Assembly: GCA_028700905.1 (NCBI GenBank)
Contig: JAQVRT010000028.1
Span: 1-9,334 of the forward strand
Direction of reading: 5' to 3'
DNA length: 9,334 nt
From: Candidatus Iainarchaeum sp.
GTDB taxonomy: Archaea; Iainarchaeota; Iainarchaeia; Iainarchaeales; CSSED10-239
Each line of letters begins with the position of its first letter. Position 1 is the stretch's first letter. A model generated the notes under the pieces. It had not been told where the DNA came from. It saw nothing but the letters and a program-made list of their open reading frames with translations, and did no database searches. A program made the translations under genes and the position numbers. Positions 909 to 9,334 of this stretch are shown here, in pieces.

Positions 909-1631
909 ATGTTAAGAGAAGAAAAACTAGTTTTTAATAATAAAGAATATATATTAAAAATATATGTTGAAAGAAGAAGATCAACATATATGTCTATTGG
1001 TAGGAACATAAATATAAGGGTTCCTAAGTTTTTTTCAGAAAAGGCAAGAGAAGAGCAAATAAATAATATGAAGTTAAAATTGATTGATTATTTAAAAAAA
1101 GATCCTAAAAAATATGCTCCAATTTCTTTAAGGAAATATGTTTCTGGGGAAACTATTGATATTTTTGATAGAAAATATGTTTTAACAATTCAAAAAGAAA
1201 ACAGAAAAACTTCTCTTGCAAAAATTAAAGAGAACCAAATTATTTTAAAAATTCCAAATAATCTTTTAAATGAAGATAAAATAATTTCAAAGTTAATAGG
1301 AAAAATTCTTTCAAAAGAACTTTTGCCTTTACTTAAAGATAAAGTTAATTTTTTTAATGATCTTTATTTTAAGCAAAATATTAAATCTATTTCTTTAAAG
1401 AACAATACTTCAAAGTTTGGTTCTTGTTCTTATGATAAAAAATTAGTTTTTTCAACTTCTCTTTTGCTTGCAAGAAAAGATGTTATTGATTATGTGATTA
1501 TTCATGAACTTTGTCACACTATTCATCATAATCATTCTAAGAGATTTTGGAAATTAGTTGAAAAATTTGTTCCGGATCATAAAGAAAAAAGTAAATGGCT
1601 CAGAGAAAACAGAGCCAAACTAATCATTTAG
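909..1631 (+). CDS. DUF45 / YgjP-like (M48-related) zinc metallohydrolase
   Basis: 240-aa ORF. The C-terminal block VIDYVIIHELCHTIHHNHSKRFWKLVEKFVPDHKEKSKWLREN matches the DUF45/YgjP signature (HExxH followed by NHSxxFW). The N-terminal basic beta-rich region (YILKIYVERRRSTYMSIGRNINIRVP) is also typical of the family. Ends in TAG at 1629-1631. Confidence 0.8.
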   Translation: MLREEKLVFNNKEYILKIYVERRRSTYMSIGRNINIRVPKFFSEKAREEQINNMKLKLIDYLKKDPKKYAPISLRKYVSGETIDIFDRKYVLTIQKENRKTSLAKIKENQIILKIPNNLLNEDKIISKLIGKILSKELLPLLKDKVNFFNDLYFKQNIKSISLKNNTSKFGSCSYDKKLVFSTSLLLARKDVIDYVIIHELCHTIHHNHSKRFWKLVEKFVPDHKEKSKWLRENRAKLII

Positions 1632-2365: not shown

Positions 2366-3112
2366 TCACTCCATAAATATTAATAAAGCCATCAAAGCAA
2401 TTCCTAATATTATACCTAATATTTGTATGGTTGTCTTTTTAATACTTGTTTCTTTCTTAAGTTCAGGTATTAAATCTGATGCTCCAATATAAATAAACCC
2501 ACCAGCAGTAAATGCAATCATAATGCTTGAAAAAGCAGAAATATATTTACTTAGAATAATTCCTATAATTCCTCCAATAACTGCTGTTAAAGAAATTAAA
2601 AAATTAAGAATTAATGCTTTTTTTCTTGAATATCCTGCATATATCAAAACACCAAAATCTCCTATCTCTTGTGGAATTTCGTGTAATAAAACAGCAATTG
2701 TGGTTGCTATTCCTAAAGGGATTGAAACAATATAACTTGTGGCTATTATAATTCCATCTAAAAAATTATGAAATATATCTCCTATAAGGTTCATTTTTCC
2801 TAAAGGATGGATATGTTCTTTAGAAGTTGGCATATGACAGTGTCTCCAATGTATTATTTTTTCTAAAATAAAAAATACTAATATTCCTGCAATTATTGAA
2901 AAAGATATTACAAGAGGATTAAAACTTTCAAAGCTTTCTGGTATTAAGTGTATAAATGCATCTCCTAAAAGTGCACCTGCAGAAAAACTGATTAAGAATA
3001 AAAGCATTTTTGAGAGATGTTTTTTAGTTGTAAATAAAGTTAATATTCCTATTAATGATATTAGGCTTACAAGTAAGATACTGATTAAAGTATATAAATA
3101 TATTTCAAGCAT
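2366..3112 (-). CDS. ZIP family divalent metal (Zn/Fe/Mn) transporter
   Basis: 248-aa polytopic ORF carrying the two metal-centre motifs of ZIP proteins: HNFLDG (TM4) and HEIPQEIGDFGVL (TM5, HExPxExGD type). It also has a His-rich cytoplasmic loop, HWRHCHMPTSKEHIHP. Length and helix count fit prokaryotic ZIPs. Confidence 0.9.
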   Translation of the reverse strand: MLEIYLYTLISILLVSLISLIGILTLFTTKKHLSKMLLFLISFSAGALLGDAFIHLIPESFESFNPLVISFSIIAGILVFFILEKIIHWRHCHMPTSKEHIHPLGKMNLIGDIFHNFLDGIIIATSYIVSIPLGIATTIAVLLHEIPQEIGDFGVLIYAGYSRKKALILNFLISLTAVIGGIIGIILSKYISAFSSIMIAFTAGGFIYIGASDLIPELKKETSIKKTTIQILGIILGIALMALLIFME

Positions 3113-3365: not shown

Positions 3366-3935
3366 ATGAGCTTAATTTTTTCAAGAATAAAATATCCTAA
3401 AATATTATTTTTTATAATTACAATTATAATTGGAGGAATAATATTTTATGAAAGTATAAAATCTCCTCTTTTTCATGACTTTATTTTTTCTTTAGGCTAT
3501 ATTGGAACTTTAATAGGTGGTTTTTTTTATGTTTTTGGTTTTACTTCCTCCCCTTCTTCTGCTTTATTATTAGTTCTTTCAAAAGAACAAAATTTCTTTT
3601 TATTTGTTTTAATTGCAGGGATCGGTAGTTTAATCAGTAATTTTTTAATGTTCAAATTTATAAGATTTTCCTTTTATGATGAACTAAATTTATTAAAAAA
3701 AGAACGGTTTATAATGGATATAGATGAAAAATTTAAAAAAAGATTTAAAAAAAATCATCACAAAATATATGTGTATATTTCTAGTATATTTATTGCATCT
3801 CCATTACCAACAGAGATAGGGGTAACTATGATGGCCAGCAATGAAGATTTATCTTTAAAATCATTTTTAAAAATTGTATTAATTTTACATGTTTGTGCTA
3901 TAGTTATATTATTTATTATTGGGAATTTAATTTAA
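3366..3935 (+). CDS. Polytopic membrane protein of unknown function (tentatively DedA/YqaA-like)
   Basis: 189-aa ORF with about five hydrophobic helices and a central basic loop (KKERFIMDIDEKFKKRFKKNHHK). Two Pro-containing segments (FGFTSSPSSALLLVL and IASPLPTEIGVTMMA) loosely recall the PxxxE re-entrant motif of DedA/YqaA-type proteins. This assignment is from memory only and is weak. Confidence 0.6.
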   Translation: MSLIFSRIKYPKILFFIITIIIGGIIFYESIKSPLFHDFIFSLGYIGTLIGGFFYVFGFTSSPSSALLLVLSKEQNFFLFVLIAGIGSLISNFLMFKFIRFSFYDELNLLKKERFIMDIDEKFKKRFKKNHHKIYVYISSIFIASPLPTEIGVTMMASNEDLSLKSFLKIVLILHVCAIVILFIIGNLI

Positions 3936-4143: not shown

Positions 4144-5074
4144 ATGAACAACAATTTTTATACAAATAATTTATTCAAAGATAATAAAGTTTACTCTAAA
4201 CCCTGTTACGTCTATTTTTAATTTAATAGGAAATACTCCTATATTAAATATATCTACTTATAATAAAATCAATCTTTTTGCAAAATTAGAAGGATATAAT
4301 ATAGGTGGGTCTATAAAAGATAGGATTGCATTAAATATTATAAATCTGGCAGAAGAGAATGGTTCTTTAAATAAAAATAAAATTATTTTAGAATCAAGTT
4401 CTGAAAATACTGCTATTGGGCTTTCAATGGTTGCTGCTGTAAAAGGTTATAAAATATATGTAGTCTTAAGTGAAGATGTAAGTTTTGAGCGAAAAAAAAT
4501 ATTATCTCTTTTAGGTGCAAAATTAATCTTTAGCCCAAAAGAAGAAGGTAGTGATGGGGCAATAAGATTATTAAAAAAGATATCTGCTAAAAATCCTGAT
4601 AAATATTTTTTACCAGATCAATATTCAAATCCAGTAAATGTATTTACTCATTATTATCAGACATCTAAAGAAATAATTCATCAATTGCCAGAAATAACTC
4701 ATTTGTTTGTTGGTCTTGGAACTTCAGGTACTGCTGTTGGTTTATCTAAATCCTTAAAAGAATGCAATCCTAAAATAAAAATAATAGCTGTAGAACCAGA
4801 AAGAAACCATAAAATATTTGGTTTAAAAAATATGTCTGAATCAATGGTTCCTAAAATATATACTACAGAATATTTTGATAAAATAGAAACAGCTTATACA
4901 AAAGAAACTTATTCTGCAACTAAAGAGCTTATTAAAAATAAAGGTTTACTTGTGGGTATAAGTTCTGGAGCAGTTTATTCTGTTGTAAAAAGATATATTG
5001 AAAAAAAAGAAGAAGGTAATTACCTTATGATTTTTCCAGATAGGTTTGAGAGATATTCTAGTATCTCTTTTTAA
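4144..5074 (+). pseudogene. Cysteine synthase / O-acetylserine sulfhydrylase-like PLP enzyme (CysK/CysM family), interrupted by a one-base frame change in a T5 run
   Basis: GGAGGT (4132-4137) sits 6 nt before the ATG at 4144. That frame reads MNNNFYTNNLFKDNKVYSKPCYVYF and stops at the TAA at 4219-4221. The +1 frame is open from 4148 and reads ...SIFNLIGNTPILNISTYNKINLFAKLEGYNIGGSIKDRIALNIINLAEENG...ESSSENTAIGLSMVAAVKGYK...GLGTSGTAVG...GISSGAV... through to 5074. This contains the family N-terminal IGNTP motif, the PLP lysine (GSIKDR), the phosphate loop and the SSGA motif. The +1 frame has no ATG, GTG or TTG before 4427. The tracked 4427 ORF would lack the PLP lysine. Removing one T from T5 (4215-4219) yields an uninterrupted 309-aa ORF. 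Confidence 0.75.
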
Positions 5075-5083
5075 AAAGAAAAA
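5073..5083 (-). terminator. T5-C-T5 tract immediately 3' of tRNA-Thr, a likely oligo-T terminator
   Basis: The minus strand reads TTTTTCTTTTT directly after the discriminator base. The tract overlaps the TAA stop codon (5072-5074) of the convergent CysK-like gene. Confidence 0.35.
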
Positions 5084-5156
5084 AGCCTCTAGAGGGATTT
5101 GAACCCTCGACCTACAGTTTACAAGACTGCCGCTCTAGCCACTGAGCTATAGAGGC
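5084..5156 (-). tRNA. tRNA-Thr (anticodon UGU), 73 nt, no encoded CCA
   Basis: The reverse complement folds by hand into a canonical cloverleaf. Acceptor stem GCCTCTA/TAGAGGC. D arm GCTC-AGTGGCTA-GAGC. Anticodon stem GCAGT/ACTGT with loop CTTGTAA (anticodon TGT). Variable loop AGGTC. T arm GAGGG-TTCAAAT-CCCTC. Discriminator T. This is the only GC-rich island in the window. Confidence 0.9.
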
Positions 5157-5254
5157 TTTATATGTTAATCTAGTTTTTAAAAAAATAGACTATTTATATA
5201 AATAATATATATACTATAACTTTAAAAACATAATCTTTTTTAGAAATTAATAAA

Positions 5255-5713
5255 CTATAATGCTGCCTTTAATTTCCCAATTACATCATAGTTTAAAATA
5301 ACATAAATAATAAATGCAAGTAAAATAACAATTGCAATAAGACCAATGAAATCTCCAATTTTCATTTTCTTTTTTGCCTTTTCAACTTTTAAAACTTCTT
5401 TTTTAATTTCTTTTACTGGTTCTTTTATTTCTTCTTTTTTATTTTCTTTGACTACTTCTTTTTTAGTAGGTGTTTCTTGTTTAGTTTCTTCAAGTCTTTC
5501 ATTATTATCAAAGAATTTTTTTCCTTGGATTTTTTCATATTTATCTATATAGTTAAAACTACTATATCCATGGATTTCATTATAATGTGTTAAATTTTCT
5601 TTAATCTCTTCAATATTATAATTATTTAAAAGTAAAATATCTATTATCTCAATATCTGATAATCTTTTATTTTTTAAATCATTAATTATTTCAATTAATT
5701 TTTCATTAATCAT
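5255..5713 (-). CDS. Tail-anchored protein: N-terminal small helical domain, Lys/Glu-rich linker, single C-terminal TM helix; function unknown
   Basis: 152-aa ORF. The N-terminus is LIEIINDLKNKRLSDIEIIDILLLNNYNIEEIKENL (helical hairpin-like). The low-complexity linker is KKEVVKENKKEEIKEPVKEIKKEVLKVEKAKKK. The C-terminus has the TM helix IGDFIGLIAIVILLAFIIYVILNY plus 9 further residues. The basic cluster before the TM predicts a cytoplasmic N-terminal domain. Same strand as the ABC cluster and directly downstream of it. Confidence 0.6.
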   Translation of the reverse strand: MINEKLIEIINDLKNKRLSDIEIIDILLLNNYNIEEIKENLTHYNEIHGYSSFNYIDKYEKIQGKKFFDNNERLEETKQETPTKKEVVKENKKEEIKEPVKEIKKEVLKVEKAKKKMKIGDFIGLIAIVILLAFIIYVILNYDVIGKLKAAL

Positions 5714-5775
5714 ATTCTTTTACCAATTTGTAATTATTCAAATATATTTACTATAGTAATAATTATAAAGTTATC

Positions 5776-6999
5776 TTAAAAGTTATTTCTTAAAGCTTCA
5801 ACAACATTCATTCTTGAAGCTTTTCTTGAAGGCAAAAGACCAGATATTAAACCAACAACTATTGATACAATTAAAGCAAGTGCTATAATTTGCCAACCTA
5901 TAACTATTTTTAGAGTTAAAAAACCTTGACTTGTTGCATAAAACTCAACAGCTTTTGCAATTCCTACACCAACCCCTAACCCTATAAGTCCTCCAAATAA
6001 AGAAAGAATAACAGATTCAATTGTAAATATAAAATAAATATCTTCTCTTTTTGCACCTAATGATTTTAAAATACCAATTTCTTTTGTTCTTTCAATAACA
6101 GATGTGTATATTGAGTTCATGATTCCAATACTTCCAACAACAACTGAAATTAAACCAATAGATACTAAAATTACTTTTAATAATCCAAGCACTGATTCAA
6201 TAATTGAAAGTACTTGTTTTGCAGTAATTATATAAAATTTATCTTTACCATGTTCTTTTTCAAGTCTTTTTTCAATTTCTTCTTGTACTTCTAAAGGATC
6301 ATATTCTTCTTTTACATTTGCATATATTTGATCTATAGTATCTACAATTTCAAATATTTCTTTTCCTTTATTTAAAGTAATGTATACTTGAGAATCGTCT
6401 GCAAGATTTCCAACAGGTTCTAAAATTCCAATGACTTTAAAATCTTTATCTTGTATTTTTATTTTTTGTCCAATTTTTATTGGGTCTTTAAAAAGATTAT
6501 CTGCAAAATAAGGTCCAATAACCACTTCATAGGCATCTCTACCTTGTAATGATTTACCTTCTCTTAAATCAATATCCATAATTTCAAAAGTTTTATCTGC
6601 AAGCTTTGGATCCAGCATTATTGCAAATTGAAATATTTCTTCATTTTTATATTCTATTTTTGCAGTTCTAAAAGAAAAACCTATAGCATAATCAATTTCT
6701 CCAATCCGTTCAATTATTTTAAGATCATTTTCTGTGATTTTTATATCTTCTGTAACTCTACTAATACTTTGATTAGGTCCTCCTTGAAAGCTTATAGGAA
6801 AAATAAAAACTGTATTTATTCCCATTGTCATAAAAACGTCTTCAACATAATTAAATAAACCATCGCTTATTAAAAAAAGAGAAACAATAGTTGCAATTCC
6901 AATTACTACAGCTATAATTGTTAATATTGATCTTAATCTTCTTCTGAAGATATTTTTAATTGTTAAATCTAACAAATGTTTATATTTTTCAAAACTCAT
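5776..6999 (-). CDS. MacB/FtsX-type ABC transporter permease (permease B; no fused ATPase domain)
   Basis: 407-aa ORF. N-terminal NIFRRRLRSILTIIAVVIGIATIV (elbow helix plus TM1) is followed by a roughly 220-aa extracytoplasmic domain (KVIGILEPVGNLADDSQVYITL) and then the FtsX core: GSIGIMNSIYTSVIERTKEIGILKSLGAKREDIYFIFTIESVILSLFGGLIGLGVG...LLPSRKASRMNVVEALR. This is the standard type VII ABC (MacB/LolC/FtsX) architecture. Confidence 0.9.
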   Translation of the reverse strand: MSFEKYKHLLDLTIKNIFRRRLRSILTIIAVVIGIATIVSLFLISDGLFNYVEDVFMTMGINTVFIFPISFQGGPNQSISRVTEDIKITENDLKIIERIGEIDYAIGFSFRTAKIEYKNEEIFQFAIMLDPKLADKTFEIMDIDLREGKSLQGRDAYEVVIGPYFADNLFKDPIKIGQKIKIQDKDFKVIGILEPVGNLADDSQVYITLNKGKEIFEIVDTIDQIYANVKEEYDPLEVQEEIEKRLEKEHGKDKFYIITAKQVLSIIESVLGLLKVILVSIGLISVVVGSIGIMNSIYTSVIERTKEIGILKSLGAKREDIYFIFTIESVILSLFGGLIGLGVGVGIAKAVEFYATSQGFLTLKIVIGWQIIALALIVSIVVGLISGLLPSRKASRMNVVEALRNNF

Positions 7000-7044
7000 G
7001 ATTTTTCTAAATTTATTTTTAAAAATAAAGAATAAGAAGAAAAA

Positions 7045-8289
7045 TTATTTTCTTCTCTTAAAAGTTTCTTTTAAAACATTTAATGCAGGTTTGATTAATA
7101 TTCTTATAAGCCATTTAATAAGAAGTATTAATATTGCAAGACCTACAATAAATAACAAAATACTAAAAATAGACATTATTACTTTATTTGCACCTTGTCC
7201 ATTTGCAAGAGGTATAACTTCAACTGTTATTTCTTGAGTTATTTTTTCTTCTTTAAGATTACTATCTTTATAGAATAAATCAATTATTAATTTTGTTTCT
7301 TTTTCTTTAATATCTGTTGTGTTAATTGTAAGCTCTATAGTATCATAGTTATTTTTTTCAATTGATCCTATAAACTCTTGAGTTGGTCTTATACCTTCTC
7401 CATTAACTGTAATGTATGAAACTTCAGTATCTACATTTCCAATATTATATATTTCAACAGATATTTTTTCTTCACTATTTTCTTTTATTTTAAAGTTAGT
7501 TCCTATATCTAAAACATTAAGTATCATTTTTGGTTGATCTTCTAACTTTAGACCAATATTTCTTGTGATTGTATATTCTCTATCCACATCAGAATAACTA
7601 ATAGTTAATGGAAGACTATAACTTATGTTTTCTGCATTTTTAGAAATATTTATTTTAAATGAAACTTCTGTTTCTTCTTCTGTATTTATTTTTTCAATAT
7701 ACTGTGTTTTAAGATCAATTACCTTTATGCTGTTATCTTCAGAATCATTTAATGTTAAGAAAATATCTTTTGCATTTTTTTGACCTAAATTTTTTAAATT
7801 AAGTGTAACTGTTCCATCAGCACCTATCTTTGCATTATTAAAAGAAGAATCAATAAGTTCAATTATTGCACTTTTTCCTTTAACATCAATTATATATTTT
7901 TTGATATTATATATATTTGATCCTTCTCTTTTATATCTAAATTCAAGATCATAAGTTCCAGTTAAAACATCAGTGTTTGTTTTTAATTTATATTTTATAA
8001 TTTTTGATTGAAAAGGTTCTAGTTTATTTACTATTCCTTCATTTTCAGAAATTAGAATAAATGGATATTCTGTTTCTAAAAAATATTCTATATTTTCTGC
8101 AGCAATATTACTTTTATTTGTAAGTTGGATCCATATTTCAAAATCTTCACCTGAAATTACTGGTGTTGGATTGTAATTATAGGTATCTGCATTTAAGTTA
8201 ATTATATCATAATTTACTTCATTTGCTGTAATTGGTATTGCAAGTAACATAATTGCAACTAAGATAAGCATTATTTTTTTTAAATTCAT
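7045..8289 (-). CDS. Secreted, C-terminally membrane-anchored protein with three tandem CARDB / COG1361-like beta-sandwich modules
   Basis: The track starts this ORF at the GTG at 8298. That GTG lies inside an AGGTG Shine-Dalgarno motif (8300-8296), which sits 6 nt before the ATG at 8289, so I call 8289 as the start (414 aa). Signal peptide: MNLKKIMLILVAIMLLAIPITAN. Three roughly 105-125-aa modules each contain the strand motif x-N-x-(G/S)-xxx-(A/T)-x-x-(I/V): IQLTNKSNIAAENIEYFL, LNLKNLGQKNAKDIFLTL and VEIYNIGNVDTEVSYITV. The C-terminus has a TM helix (VIMSIFSILLFIVGLAILILLI) and a basic tail (KETFKRRK). No PGF-CTERM-type sorting motif. Confidence 0.75.
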   Translation of the reverse strand: MNLKKIMLILVAIMLLAIPITANEVNYDIINLNADTYNYNPTPVISGEDFEIWIQLTNKSNIAAENIEYFLETEYPFILISENEGIVNKLEPFQSKIIKYKLKTNTDVLTGTYDLEFRYKREGSNIYNIKKYIIDVKGKSAIIELIDSSFNNAKIGADGTVTLNLKNLGQKNAKDIFLTLNDSEDNSIKVIDLKTQYIEKINTEEETEVSFKINISKNAENISYSLPLTISYSDVDREYTITRNIGLKLEDQPKMILNVLDIGTNFKIKENSEEKISVEIYNIGNVDTEVSYITVNGEGIRPTQEFIGSIEKNNYDTIELTINTTDIKEKETKLIIDLFYKDSNLKEEKITQEITVEVIPLANGQGANKVIMSIFSILLFIVGLAILILLIKWLIRILIKPALNVLKETFKRRK

Positions 8290-8359
8290 TTTTTTCACCT
8301 TAATCTTGTTATTTCTAAATATTTTTCTTCATTTGTATTAATTTTATTTACTGTAAATT

Positions 8360-8387
8360 TATAATCTGTTTTATTTTGCAGATTATA
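8360..8387. other. Perfect 9-bp inverted repeat TATAATCTG-N10-CAGATTATA in the permease A / beta-sandwich gene spacer
   Basis: Left arm 8360-8368, loop ttttattttg 8369-8378, right arm 8379-8387. It lies about 50 nt downstream of the permease A stop and about 71-98 nt upstream of the ATG at 8289. No U-tract follows it on the minus-strand transcript. Confidence 0.3.
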
Positions 8388-8436
8388 TATTTCTACAAAT
8401 TTAAATTTTCCTAATTAAATGTATGTTTTTTAATTT

Positions 8437-9334
8437 TTATTCCTCTCTTAAAGAATCAATTGCTTGTTGTTTTGATGCTTGGTATGCTGGAAGAAAACCT
8501 GCAATTAATCCAAGGATAAAAGAAAACCCTAGTGCTATTAAAATAATTGTTATATCAAATGATAAATTTATTTCTGTACCTGTAAATTGTCCTATAATAT
8601 TTACTATAAAAGCAATTAAAAATCCACCGATAGTTCCTATTATTCCACCAATAAGTCCTATTATTCCAGCTTCAATTAAAAAGATTCCTAAAATATCTTC
8701 TCTTCTTGCACCAATAGCTTTCATAACTCCAATTTCTCTTCTTCTTTCAAGAACAGAAGTATACATTGAGTTTAAGATTCCAATTCCTCCAACAAGTAAA
8801 GAAATAGTTGCAATTCCTACAACAACAATTGAAACTGCTTCTAAAGTTTGTGCTCTATTTTCTGCTTCTTTAACTGGTGTTGTTACAACAAAATCTTCTT
8901 GATCTCTAAATTTTTCAAGACTTTCTTCTATTTTTTCTCCAGTCTTTTCAATATCTGAAGTTTCTTTTGCAAATGCATATATTTCATCAACTTCTTTTTC
9001 TCCTGCATTTGAAATTTCTCTTAAATTTTCAAGAGACATATATATTTTTCTATCGTTATTTACATTTCCAGTATCATCTAATATTCCAACTACTTTATAA
9101 TTATTATTTGAAATTTCAATAGAATCTCCAAGTTTTATAATTTTTCCAAAATATTCATCACTTGCAAAAAGATCATAACCAATAATAATTTCATTAGATT
9201 TATCTGAATCAATATATTTCCCTCTTAACAATTCTTTTCCTTCTTGGGTTAATATTTTTTCATAGTTGTCCACTTGATATCCTGTAACACTTAATTGTCT
9301 TTCTTCTTTTGAAAATTTAGATATTGTTTGTGAA
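8437..9334 (-). CDS. MacB/FtsX-type ABC transporter permease (permease A), partial; N-terminus lies beyond the right window edge
   Basis: The track starts this ORF at the GTG at 9273, but the frame stays open to the window edge. Upstream it reads SQTISKFSKEERQLSVTGYQ before VDNYEKIL. The visible part has an extracytoplasmic domain (KVVGILDDTGNVNNDRKIYMSL) and the FtsX core GGIGILNSMYTSVLERRREIGVMKAIGARREDILGIFLIEAGIIGLIGG...FLPAYQASKQQAIDSLREE. It is paralogous to permease B. Confidence 0.85.
   Translation of the reverse strand, partial: SQTISKFSKEERQLSVTGYQVDNYEKILTQEGKELLRGKYIDSDKSNEIIIGYDLFASDEYFGKIIKLGDSIEISNNNYKVVGILDDTGNVNNDRKIYMSLENLREISNAGEKEVDEIYAFAKETSDIEKTGEKIEESLEKFRDQEDFVVTTPVKEAENRAQTLEAVSIVVVGIATISLLVGGIGILNSMYTSVLERRREIGVMKAIGARREDILGIFLIEAGIIGLIGGIIGTIGGFLIAFIVNIIGQFTGTEINLSFDITIILIALGFSFILGLIAGFLPAYQASKQQAIDSLREE

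What the first reader, a model, noticed from the sequence alone, without database searches (positions are those of the whole stretch)
5776..9334. Two paralogous MacB/FtsX permeases bracket a triple beta-sandwich surface protein: a candidate archaeal mechanotransmission module
On the minus strand the gene order is permease A, CARDB/COG1361-like anchored protein, permease B.

The two permeases are clear paralogs. I counted about 34 of 59 identical residues by eye across the GxGIxNSxYTSVxER..EIG..K..GA.REDI core. This suggests a heterodimeric LolC/LolE-like pair rather than a MacB homodimer.

Type VII ABC systems (MacB, LolCDE, FtsEX) use ATP hydrolysis to move their large extracytoplasmic domains and act on a partner outside the membrane. 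They do not carry substrate across it. In diderm bacteria the partner is MacA/TolC, LolA, or EnvC/PcsB. The lineage signals here point to a single-membrane archaeon, and the only candidate partner is the embedded three-module beta-sandwich protein with its own C-terminal anchor.

I recall that COG1361-type proteins recur next to COG0577 permeases and COG1136 ATPases in archaeal genomes, without any assigned function. I cannot verify that recollection here. The beta-sandwich protein could be an adaptor or stator, a substrate that is extracted or displayed, or a surface or host-contact structure driven by the ATPase. No ATPase gene is in the window. One is predicted just beyond 9334, upstream of permease A.
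Basis: partly seen in the sequence, partly recalled or inferred. Interest (0 to 1): 0.72.

Follow-up and report, generated by a model that had tools for sequence, protein, structure and literature searches.

The report
Archaeal MacB-type pump with Ig-like partner
This is a real and widely conserved archaeal gene set in which an ATP-driven MacB-type membrane machine always travels with a membrane-anchored protein of three Ig-like domains; that partner has never been studied and most likely serves as the pump's outer accessory subunit.

Summary
On the minus strand lie permease A (8437 to beyond 9334), a 414-aa protein with a signal peptide, three CARDB-type beta-sandwiches and a C-terminal anchor (7045-8289), and permease B (5776-6999).

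The window comes from a DPANN archaeon about 98% identical to Ca. Forterrea multitransposorum. In near-identical contigs the predicted ABC ATPase sits directly upstream of permease A.

The link is not local. All 16 Iainarchaeia loci keep ATPase-permA-(orf219)-CARDB-permB. In 80 distant metagenome loci the order is ATPase-COG1361-permease-permease: 60/62 have the ATPase, 60/62 a permease, 42/44 two permeases, and no permease lies elsewhere in 323 kb. A PadR or MarR-like regulator often leads. So the "bracketing" is a lineage-specific permutation of a widespread four-gene system.

The 8360-8387 hairpin lies in the relic of a deleted 219-aa gene and shows no terminator features.

Relatives of the beta-sandwich protein also pair with an MMPL/RND gene and an ABC-2 exporter. 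This favours an exporter accessory or adaptor role over cargo or adhesin. I found no functional study. Mechanism remains inferred.

The parts
8437..9334 (-). Permease A, C-terminal 298 codons of a 396-aa MacB/FtsX-type permease. The N-terminus and the ABC ATPase gene lie beyond the window end.
   Evidence: Pfam FtsX E=5e-25 and MacB_PCD E=1e-11. The full-length 396-aa ortholog, with a 234-aa ABC_tran ATPase ending 2 bp upstream, is in L002/L003; this stretch is 98.4% identical at nucleotide level.
8299..8436 (-). 138-bp spacer: decayed 3' remnant of a 219-aa gene (orf219) that is intact between permease A and the CARDB gene in L002/L003. It contains the 8360-8387 hairpin.
   Evidence: blastn and the MAFFT alignment show about 552 bp missing relative to L002:9331-9882, with junctions at TAAAAAT microrepeats. 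The same deletion is present in the independent contig L001. The fold has z=-3.0, but the site has no T-run and no terminator-like match.
7045..8289 (-). COG1361/CARDB-type type-I membrane protein, 414 aa. Signal peptide at about aa 1-23 (nt 8221-8289). Beta-sandwich module 1 at aa 28-137 (7879-8208), module 2 at aa 141-249 (7543-7869), module 3 at aa 253-359 (7213-7533). TM helix plus conserved basic tail at aa 365-414 (7048-7197).
   Evidence: Pfam CARDB 28.4 bits vs 22.7 cutoff. AF2 pLDDT 83.7 with three beta-sandwiches and a C-terminal helix. A profile search finds 4134 representatives, mostly about 400-420 aa and matched over nearly full length; relatives are named 'COG1361 S-layer family protein'. 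W393, P401 and A402 in the tail are invariant among 18 homologs.
7000..7044 (-). 45-bp spacer between the CARDB gene and permease B, containing two T5 tracts on the coding strand.
   Evidence: Read directly from the sequence. Possible archaeal oligo-T attenuation, which is untested and weak evidence in a 23% GC genome.
5776..6999 (-). Permease B, a complete 407-aa MacB/FtsX-type permease and paralog of permease A.
   Evidence: Pfam MacB_PCD E=1e-26 and FtsX E=4e-21. 37% identical to A, E=2e-44. The closest solved structure is E. coli MacB 5NIK, E=1.3e-35. Orthologs sit downstream of the CARDB gene in all Iainarchaeia loci long enough to test.

Best explanation
The region is the 3' three-quarters of a conserved operon for a MacB-type (type VII) ABC machine. 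One ABC ATPase gene lies just outside the window. The window holds two diverged permease paralogs, A and B, and a dedicated single-pass membrane protein with three CARDB/Ig-like beta-sandwich domains outside the cell (COG1361 family).

Shown: the four genes are inherited as a unit across DPANN and other archaea.

Inferred: the complex is probably ATPase2-permA-permB, LolD2CE-like in stoichiometry. The COG1361 protein would be held next to it by its C-terminal TM helix and conserved basic tail.

Inferred: ATP binding and hydrolysis move the large permease ectodomains (mechanotransmission, as in MacB). The beta-sandwich stack acts as the extracytoplasmic accessory or adaptor subunit. In that role it would receive or guide expelled material (toxic or amphipathic compounds, or an envelope component) away from the membrane surface through the space under the S-layer. 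Functionally this is the role bacterial periplasmic adaptor proteins play for MacB, RND and other exporters.

In most lineages expression is under a PadR, MarR or TetR-type repressor, as is typical of inducible efflux systems. The Forterrea/Iainarchaeia clade has lost the regulator and permuted the gene order.
For: Domain identities.

ATPase directly upstream in near-identical contigs, with intact Walker A, signature, Walker B and H-loop motifs.

Synteny in 16/16 Iainarchaeia species-level loci despite CARDB identity falling to 44%.

Census of 80 metagenome loci chosen only by a motif inside the COG1361 protein (23 clusters at 50% identity). 60/62 have the ATPase directly upstream, 60/62 a permease directly downstream and 42/44 two permeases. 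There are 0 permease hits in 323 kb outside the module.

Individually looked-up distant members (22-26% identity) sit in overlapping or abutting operons with MacB_PCD/FtsX and ABC_tran genes.

Regulators: 31/51 testable loci have a same-strand PadR (16), MarR-like (14) or TetR (1) gene directly upstream. PadR, TetR and MarR also lead L019, L020 and L022.

The same protein type is paired with other exporter classes: TetR-MMPL/RND-CARDB in Methanococcus maripaludis C5 and CARDB-ABC ATPase-ABC-2 permease.

The protein has its own Sec-type signal peptide and TM anchor, so it does not need the ABC system for export.

All three modules, the TM helix and the tail are conserved about equally, with no hypervariable tip: mean pairwise identity is 0.57, 0.49, 0.50, 0.51 and 0.49. 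It diverges at about the same rate as the permeases.
Against: No physical interaction, transport assay, expression data or complex model is available, so everything beyond co-inheritance is inference.

No gene fusions of COG1361 with a permease were found among the long family members checked; these only carry more CARDB repeats.

The structure search returns only generic tandem-Ig matches, and no PDB sequence relative exists. The fold therefore says nothing specific about function.

Ig-like beta-sandwiches are not known to form the tubular conduits that bacterial adaptor proteins form.

The Forterrea clade lacks the regulator that supports the efflux reading elsewhere.

An NJ tree does not resolve whether permeases A and B are orthologs of the canonical perm1 and perm2. 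Best-hit scores lean that way only weakly (33/43 and 32/43).
Confidence: 0.55

Rival explanations
1. Cargo model (Lol-like). The ABC machine extracts the C-terminally anchored COG1361 protein from the membrane, or repositions it, and delivers it to the cell surface or S-layer. The beta-sandwich protein is then the substrate, not a subunit.
For: LolCDE and HrtBA show that MacB-type machines can extract membrane-embedded molecules (established knowledge). There is a strict one-to-one gene pairing. NCBI labels the family 'S-layer family protein'. Two permease paralogs with one ATPase mirrors LolCDE.
Against: The TM helix and cytoplasmic tail are as conserved as the ectodomains, and the tail has invariant W393/P401/A402. 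That is unexpected for a segment that merely gets pulled out.

The same protein type also accompanies an RND/MMPL and an ABC-2 exporter, and neither class is known to extract proteins.

PadR, MarR and TetR control suits inducible efflux better than constitutive envelope assembly.

COG1361 genes are reported in Thermoplasma and Ferroplasma lineages, where no S-layer has been seen (PMC10354927).
Confidence: 0.15
2. Host-contact or scavenging model specific to DPANN. The beta-sandwich stack reaches the host cell or binds hydrophobic molecules such as lipids, and the MacB motor drives their capture or transfer.
For: All named close and mid-distance relatives come from DPANN lineages: Diapherotrites, Aenigmarchaeota, Woesearchaeota, Nanoarchaeota and Nanohaloarchaea. 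The roughly 4.5-kb module is retained in a complete Ca. Forterrea genome of 839,632 bp. Some Ig-like sandwiches bind lipids, for example ML domains (general knowledge).
Against: Homologous modules occur in contigs with halobacterial-type DUFs, and the partner family occurs in a free-living methanogen.

There is no hypervariable distal module.

MacB-type systems are not known to import.

Drug-type repressors lead most loci.
Confidence: 0.08
3. FtsEX-like regulator. The permease ectodomains allosterically switch an extracellular enzyme or an envelope-remodelling activity, with the COG1361 protein as the regulated effector. Nothing is transported.
For: FtsEX-EnvC/PcsB/CwlO set the precedent for MacB-fold machines that act on an extracytoplasmic protein partner (established knowledge). 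The partner here is a dedicated co-inherited protein.
Against: The COG1361 protein has no detectable catalytic or coiled-coil domain, only CARDB-type sandwiches.

The ectodomains are MacB-sized, with MacB_PCD spanning about 220 aa, rather than the small FtsX ECD. FtsX models score far below their cutoffs, 41-42 against 250 bits.

DPANN archaea have no peptidoglycan (general knowledge).
Confidence: 0.07
4. Fortuitous adjacency. The beta-sandwich gene is an unrelated surface protein that happens to lie between two ABC permease genes.
For: The window alone cannot exclude it. A 138-bp spacer and a hairpin separate permease A from the CARDB gene.
Against: Adjacency holds in 16/16 Iainarchaeia loci and in about 97% of testable distant loci spanning 23 clusters at 50% identity. 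Start and stop codons often overlap or abut, and no permease genes occur elsewhere in 323 kb of flanks. The spacer is a deletion scar.
Confidence: 0.02

Closest known systems
MacB of the MacAB-TolC tripartite pump (E. coli 5NIK; A. baumannii 5GKO; A. actinomycetemcomitans 5LIL)
   Same: Best sequence match of permease B among solved structures, E=1.3e-35 over residues 11-404. Same Pfam pair, MacB_PCD plus FtsX. A dedicated extracytoplasmic partner with a single TM helix is encoded in the operon, as MacA is.
   Different: The NBD is a separate gene rather than fused. There are two permease paralogs instead of a homodimer. The partner is a C-terminally anchored triple Ig-like sandwich, not an N-terminally anchored HlyD-family adaptor. 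There is no outer membrane or TolC. The NCBIfam MacB equivalog scores 144.5 bits against a cutoff of 966.
LolCDE lipoprotein-release complex
   Same: One ATPase gene plus two diverged MacB-fold permease paralogs, implying a heteromeric TMD pair.
   Different: The lolCE equivalog HMM scores 55-62 bits against a cutoff of 362. There is no LolA/LolB and no outer membrane. The partner is a membrane-anchored beta-sandwich protein.
Gram-positive MacB-type systems: S. pneumoniae Spr0693-0694-0695 (5XU1) and B. subtilis YtrF (9O9X)
   Same: MacB-fold permeases working in a single-membrane envelope, with a separate ATPase. Permease B matches them at E=4e-27 and 4e-24.
   Different: Spr0693 is an HlyD-type adaptor. 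No CARDB-type partner is described for either system.
COG1361 / CARDB (PF07705) / DUF11 'S-layer family' proteins, e.g. P. furiosus PF1109 CARDB domain (PDB 2KL6, cited in PMC8416519)
   Same: Same domain type. The family profile retrieves proteins that NCBI names 'COG1361 S-layer family protein'. 52/57 sampled members hit Pfam CARDB.
   Different: The subfamily here has a fixed architecture of about 410 aa (signal peptide, three modules, TM, basic tail) and an obligate ABC context. No curated NCBIfam model matches the window protein. No evidence shows that it builds an S-layer.
Bacterial periplasmic adaptor proteins (HlyD/MFP family) as a functional class
   Same: Single-TM accessory proteins encoded with exporters of several unrelated classes. 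Here the classes are MacB-type ABC, ABC-2 and MMPL/RND.
   Different: No sequence or fold relationship. The anchor is at the opposite terminus. Oligomeric state and any conduit function are unknown. This is an analogy only.

Membership tests
MacB/FtsX-fold (type VII) ABC permease | C-terminal FtsX domain (TM2-4) and a large extracytoplasmic MacB_PCD domain between TM1 and TM2 | tested here: met
   Pfam FtsX E=4e-21 (B) and 5e-25 (A). MacB_PCD E=1e-26 (B, residues 24-244), 1e-11 (truncated A) and 1e-28 (full-length A ortholog).
MacB/FtsX-fold (type VII) ABC permease | Cognate MacB/LolD-type ABC ATPase encoded with the permease | tested here: met
   Not in the window. A 234-aa ABC_tran protein (E=2.6e-33) ends 2 bp before permease A in L002/L003, which match the window at 96-98% nucleotide identity, and the ATPase is found in every other Iainarchaeia locus long enough to test.
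MacB/FtsX-fold (type VII) ABC permease | Works by mechanotransmission (ectodomain motion) rather than a transmembrane substrate path | not testable with these tools
   Requires structures in nucleotide-bound states, or biochemistry.
LolCDE | Two paralogous permeases plus one ATPase forming a heteromer | tested here: inconclusive
   The gene content fits. Assembly was not tested.
LolCDE | Scores above the curated lolCE, LolC or LolE models | tested here: not met
   TIGR02212 scores 61.7 and 54.6 bits against a cutoff of 362. The LolC and LolE exception models score 31 bits or less against cutoffs of 439 or more.
MacAB-TolC tripartite pump | HlyD-family membrane-fusion protein encoded with MacB | tested here: not met
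   No HlyD-type Pfam family appears among the called genes around the module in L002, L019, L020-L023 or L109. The partner is CARDB-type instead.
FtsEX | Scores above the curated FtsX models; small ECD | tested here: not met
   FtsX_actino scores 41-42 bits against a cutoff of 250, and FtsX_Gneg and FtsX_Gpos score 25-27 bits against 225-255. The ectodomain is MacB_PCD-sized.
COG1361 / CARDB tandem beta-sandwich membrane protein | CARDB-type beta-sandwich repeats | tested here: met
   Pfam CARDB is above the gathering score on module 2. The AF2 model shows three sandwiches. One invariant Asn per module (N58 nearly invariant, N167, N282) marks the repeated xNxG motif.
COG1361 / CARDB tandem beta-sandwich membrane protein | Signal peptide plus C-terminal TM anchor, about 400-420 aa, homologous over nearly the full length to proteins named COG1361 | tested here: met
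   The profile search finds 221 representatives at E<=1e-30, and most of the 150 listed are 390-450 aa and matched over nearly full length. Named members appear.
Structural S-layer protein | Forms the paracrystalline surface lattice | not testable with these tools
   This rests on an annotation label only. COG1361 genes are reported in Thermoplasmatales lineages where no S-layer has been visualised (PMC10354927), which argues against a general lattice role.

The most novel reading that the evidence does not exclude
COG1361-type tandem beta-sandwich proteins are the archaeal counterpart of bacterial periplasmic adaptor proteins. They would form a previously unrecognised class of single-pass accessory subunits that couple unrelated exporters (MacB-type ABC, ABC-2, MMPL/RND) to the space beneath the S-layer. 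In the MacB-type systems the stack would be driven or gated by ATP-powered ectodomain motion.

A bolder sub-variant has a probability of about 0.05-0.08. In DPANN archaea, which reportedly depend on host-derived lipids (general knowledge, not checked here), the stack would serve as a bridge for hydrophobic cargo, analogous to Lpt or Lol.
Probability: 0.3. Interest if true: 0.75.

Novelty: new variant of a known kind. Interest (0 to 1): 0.55.

Why it matters
MacB-fold ABC machines are understood only through their bacterial partners: MacA/TolC, LolA, EnvC/PcsB and BceS. Members are locked to the ABC genes in almost every locus examined, and the module is retained in DPANN genomes under 1 Mb. 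Despite this, I found no functional study. The only annotation is the uninformative label 'COG1361 S-layer family protein'.

Defining its role would show how single-membrane, S-layer-bearing archaea complete an efflux or extrusion pathway without HlyD-type adaptors. It would add a new partner class to mechanotransmission biology. It would also give a function to one of the few transport systems kept by genome-reduced symbiotic archaea.

The haloarchaeal-type (TetR-COG1361-permease-ATPase) and Methanococcus (TetR-MMPL-CARDB) versions occur in, or close to, groups of archaea that can be genetically manipulated. That makes the question directly testable.

Tried and rejected
1. Extending the window by exact-protein look-up of permease B gave only a 3.7-kb contig. 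P0003 was not on record. Extension succeeded through the 98%-identical P0010.

Alignment A4 worked.

3. The word-indexed homolog search with A3 was swamped by close relatives and returned few distant members.

4. tblastn of a distant member, taken to be haloarchaeal from its flanking DUFs (P0203), against the plasmid collection found no match.

5. Foldseek of the AF2 model against the PDB gave only generic tandem-Ig hits (integrin legs, ciliary HYDIN-like proteins, transglutaminase). It gave no functional lead. The PDB sequence profile search gave nothing.

6. I looked for COG1361-permease fusions among long family members and found none; they only carry extra CARDB repeats.

7. The NJ tree of permeases places the Iainarchaeia A and B clades outside the perm1/perm2 clade. 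This may be a long-branch or composition artefact, so orthology of A and B with perm1 and perm2 is left unresolved.

8. The identity of orf219 is unresolved. It has no Pfam hit, and the PDB profile gives only a non-significant match to a cap methyltransferase motif-I region, E=0.2.

9. Nine literature searches covering COG1361, MacB/CARDB/archaea, type VII ABC/archaea, arCOG/S-layer domain, COG0577/COG1136 and DPANN/FtsX found no functional or structural study of this module. The passages I read were unrelated or only annotation-level.

10. The hairpin as a terminator was rejected. It lies in a relic of coding sequence, has no T-run and gives no terminator-like match.

11. Multimer modelling was not attempted.

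Full report
**1. What is in the window**

The window is 23% G+C. On the minus strand of 5776-9334 lie three ORFs:
- Permease A, 8437 to beyond 9334. It is open at the window edge, with 298 codons present.
- A 414-aa ORF at 7045-8289. Its ATG is preceded by GGTGA. A GTG three codons upstream would give 417 aa.
- Permease B, 5776-6999, 407 aa.

Both permeases carry the Pfam pair MacB_PCD plus FtsX, with E-values from 1e-11 to 1e-26. They are 37% identical over 264 aa, E=2e-44.

The middle protein reaches the CARDB gathering score on its central module only. An AlphaFold2 model built on 18 homologs has mean pLDDT 83.7. It shows an N-terminal signal-like helix, three beta-sandwich modules and a long C-terminal helix at residues 365-412. 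The N-terminus, MNLKKIMLILVAIMLLAIPITA/NE, reads as a Sec signal peptide. The protein is therefore a type-I membrane protein with three Ig-like domains outside the cell and a short basic tail inside.

**2. Origin and the missing ATPase**

The 414-aa protein is on record from 'Candidatus ainarchaeum sp.'. It is 98% identical to its counterpart in the complete genome of Ca. Forterrea multitransposorum (CP045477.1, 839,632 bp), a DPANN (Diapherotrites/Iainarchaeia) archaeon described in PMC5905446.

Window 5079-8402 and 8433-9334 align at 96.2% and 98.4% nucleotide identity with a 663-kb JGI contig, L002. There the gene order is:
- ABC ATPase, 234 aa (ABC_tran E=2.6e-33, all catalytic motifs present)
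- permease A, 396 aa
- a 219-aa ORF (orf219)
- the CARDB protein
- permease B
- a 152-aa ORF

**3. The spacer and the hairpin**

The window lacks about 552 bp of orf219. The 138-bp spacer at 8299-8436 is the decayed 3' end of that gene, joined to the permease A stop codon at a TAAAAAT microrepeat. An independent assembly, L001, carries the same deletion, so it is a real strain variant.

The 8360-8387 hairpin has a 9-bp A/U stem and sits within a fold with z=-3.0. In L002 the same bases are coding sequence. No T-run follows it, and the terminator scan finds nothing. I found no support for it being a terminator.

orf219 homologs stay near the module in 11 of 16 related loci but occupy two different positions. 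The family has no Pfam or PDB match.

**4. Is the association real?**

I ran three independent tests.

(a) A scan of one genome per GTDB species found 16 loci, all from DPANN or Iainarchaeia-type MAGs. Every locus long enough shows ATPase-permA-(orf219)-CARDB-permB on one strand. This holds even though CARDB identity to the window protein falls to 44%.

(b) An HMM search of 1.84 billion representative proteins found 4134 relatives at E<=1e-3 and 221 at E<=1e-30. Most of those listed are 390-450 aa and matched over nearly their full length. Named members are 'COG1361 S-layer family protein' from Diapherotrites, Aenigmarchaeota, Woesearchaeota, Nanoarchaeota and Nanohaloarchaea. I looked up distant members (22-26% identity) individually, with these results:
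- PadR-ATPase-COG1361-permease-permease (L019)
- TetR-COG1361-permease-ATPase (L020/L021)
- MarR-COG1361-permease-ATPase (L022)
- COG1361-permease-ATPase (L023)
- ATPase-COG1361(290 aa, two modules)-permease (L109)

One weak partial relative had no ABC genes next to it (L025).

(c) A metagenome scan keyed only on a motif inside the COG1361 protein ([FY][IL]G[TNK][LI][ED][SA]DD[FY]) returned 80 loci, which form 23 clusters at 50% identity. The census was:
- 60/62 loci with enough upstream sequence have an ABC ATPase directly upstream on the same strand.
- 60/62 have a MacB-type permease directly downstream.
- 42/44 have two permeases.
- No permease hit occurs in the 323 kb of flanking sequence outside the module.

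Chance adjacency is excluded.

**5. What the comparison changes**

The common order is ATPase-COG1361-perm1-perm2. The window's 'bracketing' order is a permutation confined to the Iainarchaeia clade. The four-component content, including two diverged permeases with a single ATPase, is the conserved feature.

In the canonical set perm1 and perm2 largely form separate clades. Permease A scores better against perm1 in 33/43 comparisons and permease B against perm2 in 32/43. An NJ tree does not confirm this orthology, so I leave it open. Single-permease forms also exist (L020, L022, L023, L109).

**6. Clues to function**

- Of 51 canonical loci with an assessable upstream gene, 31 have a same-strand wHTH repressor-type gene: PadR 16, MarR-like 14 and TetR 1. 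Pfam confirmed representatives of each. This is the usual signature of inducible efflux or detoxification operons. The Iainarchaeia loci have none.
- The same kind of tandem-CARDB membrane protein lies in a TetR-MMPL/RND-CARDB operon in Methanococcus maripaludis C5. It also lies next to an ABC-2-type exporter. The protein type therefore accompanies three unrelated exporter classes.
- The protein carries its own signal peptide and anchor, so it does not need the ABC system to be exported.
- Conservation is even across the three modules, the TM helix and the tail: 0.57, 0.49, 0.50, 0.51 and 0.49 mean pairwise identity in the close family. W393, P401 and A402 in the tail are invariant. Across the wide family the most conserved stretch is an acidic motif, FIGxLExDDxDS, in the membrane-proximal module. 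There is no hypervariable tip of the kind expected for an adhesin or host-contact protein.
- Its divergence tracks that of the permeases.

**7. Most likely mechanism**

The shown part is a co-inherited unit of ATPase, two MacB-fold permeases and the COG1361 protein.

The rest is inferred. The complex would be an ATPase2-permA-permB core, with COG1361 docked through its TM helix and tail and its membrane-proximal module. ATP-driven movement of the MacB-type ectodomains would expel material from the outer leaflet or membrane surface. The roughly three-domain stack would act as the accessory or adaptor that receives or guides that material across the sub-S-layer space. I put this at 0.55.

The rivals are:
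- COG1361 as extracted cargo (Lol-like), 0.15
- A DPANN host-contact or scavenging device, 0.08
- An FtsEX-like switch of an envelope effector, 0.07
- Fortuitous adjacency, 0.02

**8. Comparison with known systems**

Permease B's closest solved relatives are E. coli MacB (5NIK, E=1.3e-35), other MacBs, S. pneumoniae Spr0695 (5XU1) and B. subtilis YtrF (9O9X).

By curated NCBIfam models the permeases are not MacB, LolC/E, DevC or FtsX equivalogs. All scores are far below the cutoffs. No HlyD-type adaptor gene is present in any examined locus.

The system works like a MacB-family machine and resembles LolCDE in subunit composition. It is a member of neither. Its partner class, a C-terminally anchored triple CARDB sandwich, is not among the characterised partners. 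The window protein matches no NCBIfam model and has no PDB sequence relative. Fold matches are generic tandem-Ig proteins.

**9. Novelty and limits**

Nine full-text searches and the passages I read turned up no functional or structural study of this module. The family appears only as an 'S-layer domain' label. The library lacks most subscription journals, so an unseen report cannot be excluded.

The gene association is visible to anyone browsing COG or arCOG neighbourhoods, so it is not a surprise to comparative genomicists. As a mechanistic entity it is an uncharacterised variant of a known kind.

Every step beyond co-inheritance is inference. No interaction, expression or transport data exist, and multimer modelling was not possible with the tools at hand.

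Noticed in passing
window 8299-8436 (and L002:9331-9990): A 219-aa gene of unknown family (orf219) has a GxGxG motif and no Pfam or PDB match. It is deleted in this strain between TAAAAAT microrepeats, leaving a 138-bp relic. Its homologs stay within about 1-4 kb of the ABC module in 11/16 related loci, either between permease A and the CARDB gene or downstream on the opposite strand.
   Followed up: partly
window 5083-5157 (-): A tRNA-Thr (TGT) sits exactly at the point (window about 5079) where synteny with the near-identical Forterrea-type contig L002 ends. Beyond it L002 carries Cas1 and other genes, while the window carries different genes. This looks like a tRNA-flanked strain-variable island boundary.
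   Followed up: partly
window about 4160-5074 (+): A PALP/cysteine-synthase-like ORF. Only the last 215 aa follow an ATG. The conserved N-terminal part, including the GGSIKDR PLP-lysine motif, continues in frame upstream without any ATG, GTG or TTG. The gene may use a non-canonical start, or the start codon may have been lost.
   Followed up: partly
window 5255-5713 (-): A 152-aa ORF directly downstream of permease B, with a Lys/Glu-rich middle and a C-terminal TM helix and no Pfam match. It is conserved only in the closest relatives (L001-L003, L005, L006), so it is probably not part of the module.
   Followed up: partly
window 7000-7044 (minus-strand spacer after the CARDB stop codon): Two T5 tracts lie immediately after the CARDB stop codon. 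They could act as archaeal oligo-T attenuators and give more CARDB than permease B transcript. In a 23% GC genome they could equally be chance.
   Followed up: no
metagenome loci, e.g. L055:4406-4990(-), L079:4468-5055(-), L071, L073, L106: In 13 of 51 canonical loci the gene upstream of the ATPase is a divergently transcribed protein of about 190 aa with an N-terminal TM helix and a KYNxFKF motif. It has no Pfam match and is a second recurrent, uncharacterised neighbour of the module.
   Followed up: partly
L107:4158-7566 (Methanococcus maripaludis C5, CP000609.1) and L111:108-3555: Tandem-CARDB membrane proteins also sit in a TetR-MMPL/RND-CARDB operon in a cultivable methanogen, and next to an ABC-2-type exporter in a metagenome contig.
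   Followed up: partly
window 909-1631 (+), 2366-3112 (-), 3366-3935 (+): The rest of the window encodes a YgjP-like metallopeptidase (E=4e-42), a ZIP metal transporter (E=2e-50) and a weak VTT-domain membrane protein. These are ordinary genes with no evident link to the finding.
   Followed up: yes
L002:14498-15679 (-): A Cas1 gene lies about 2 kb downstream of the module in the Forterrea-type contig, but not in the window's strain.
   Followed up: no
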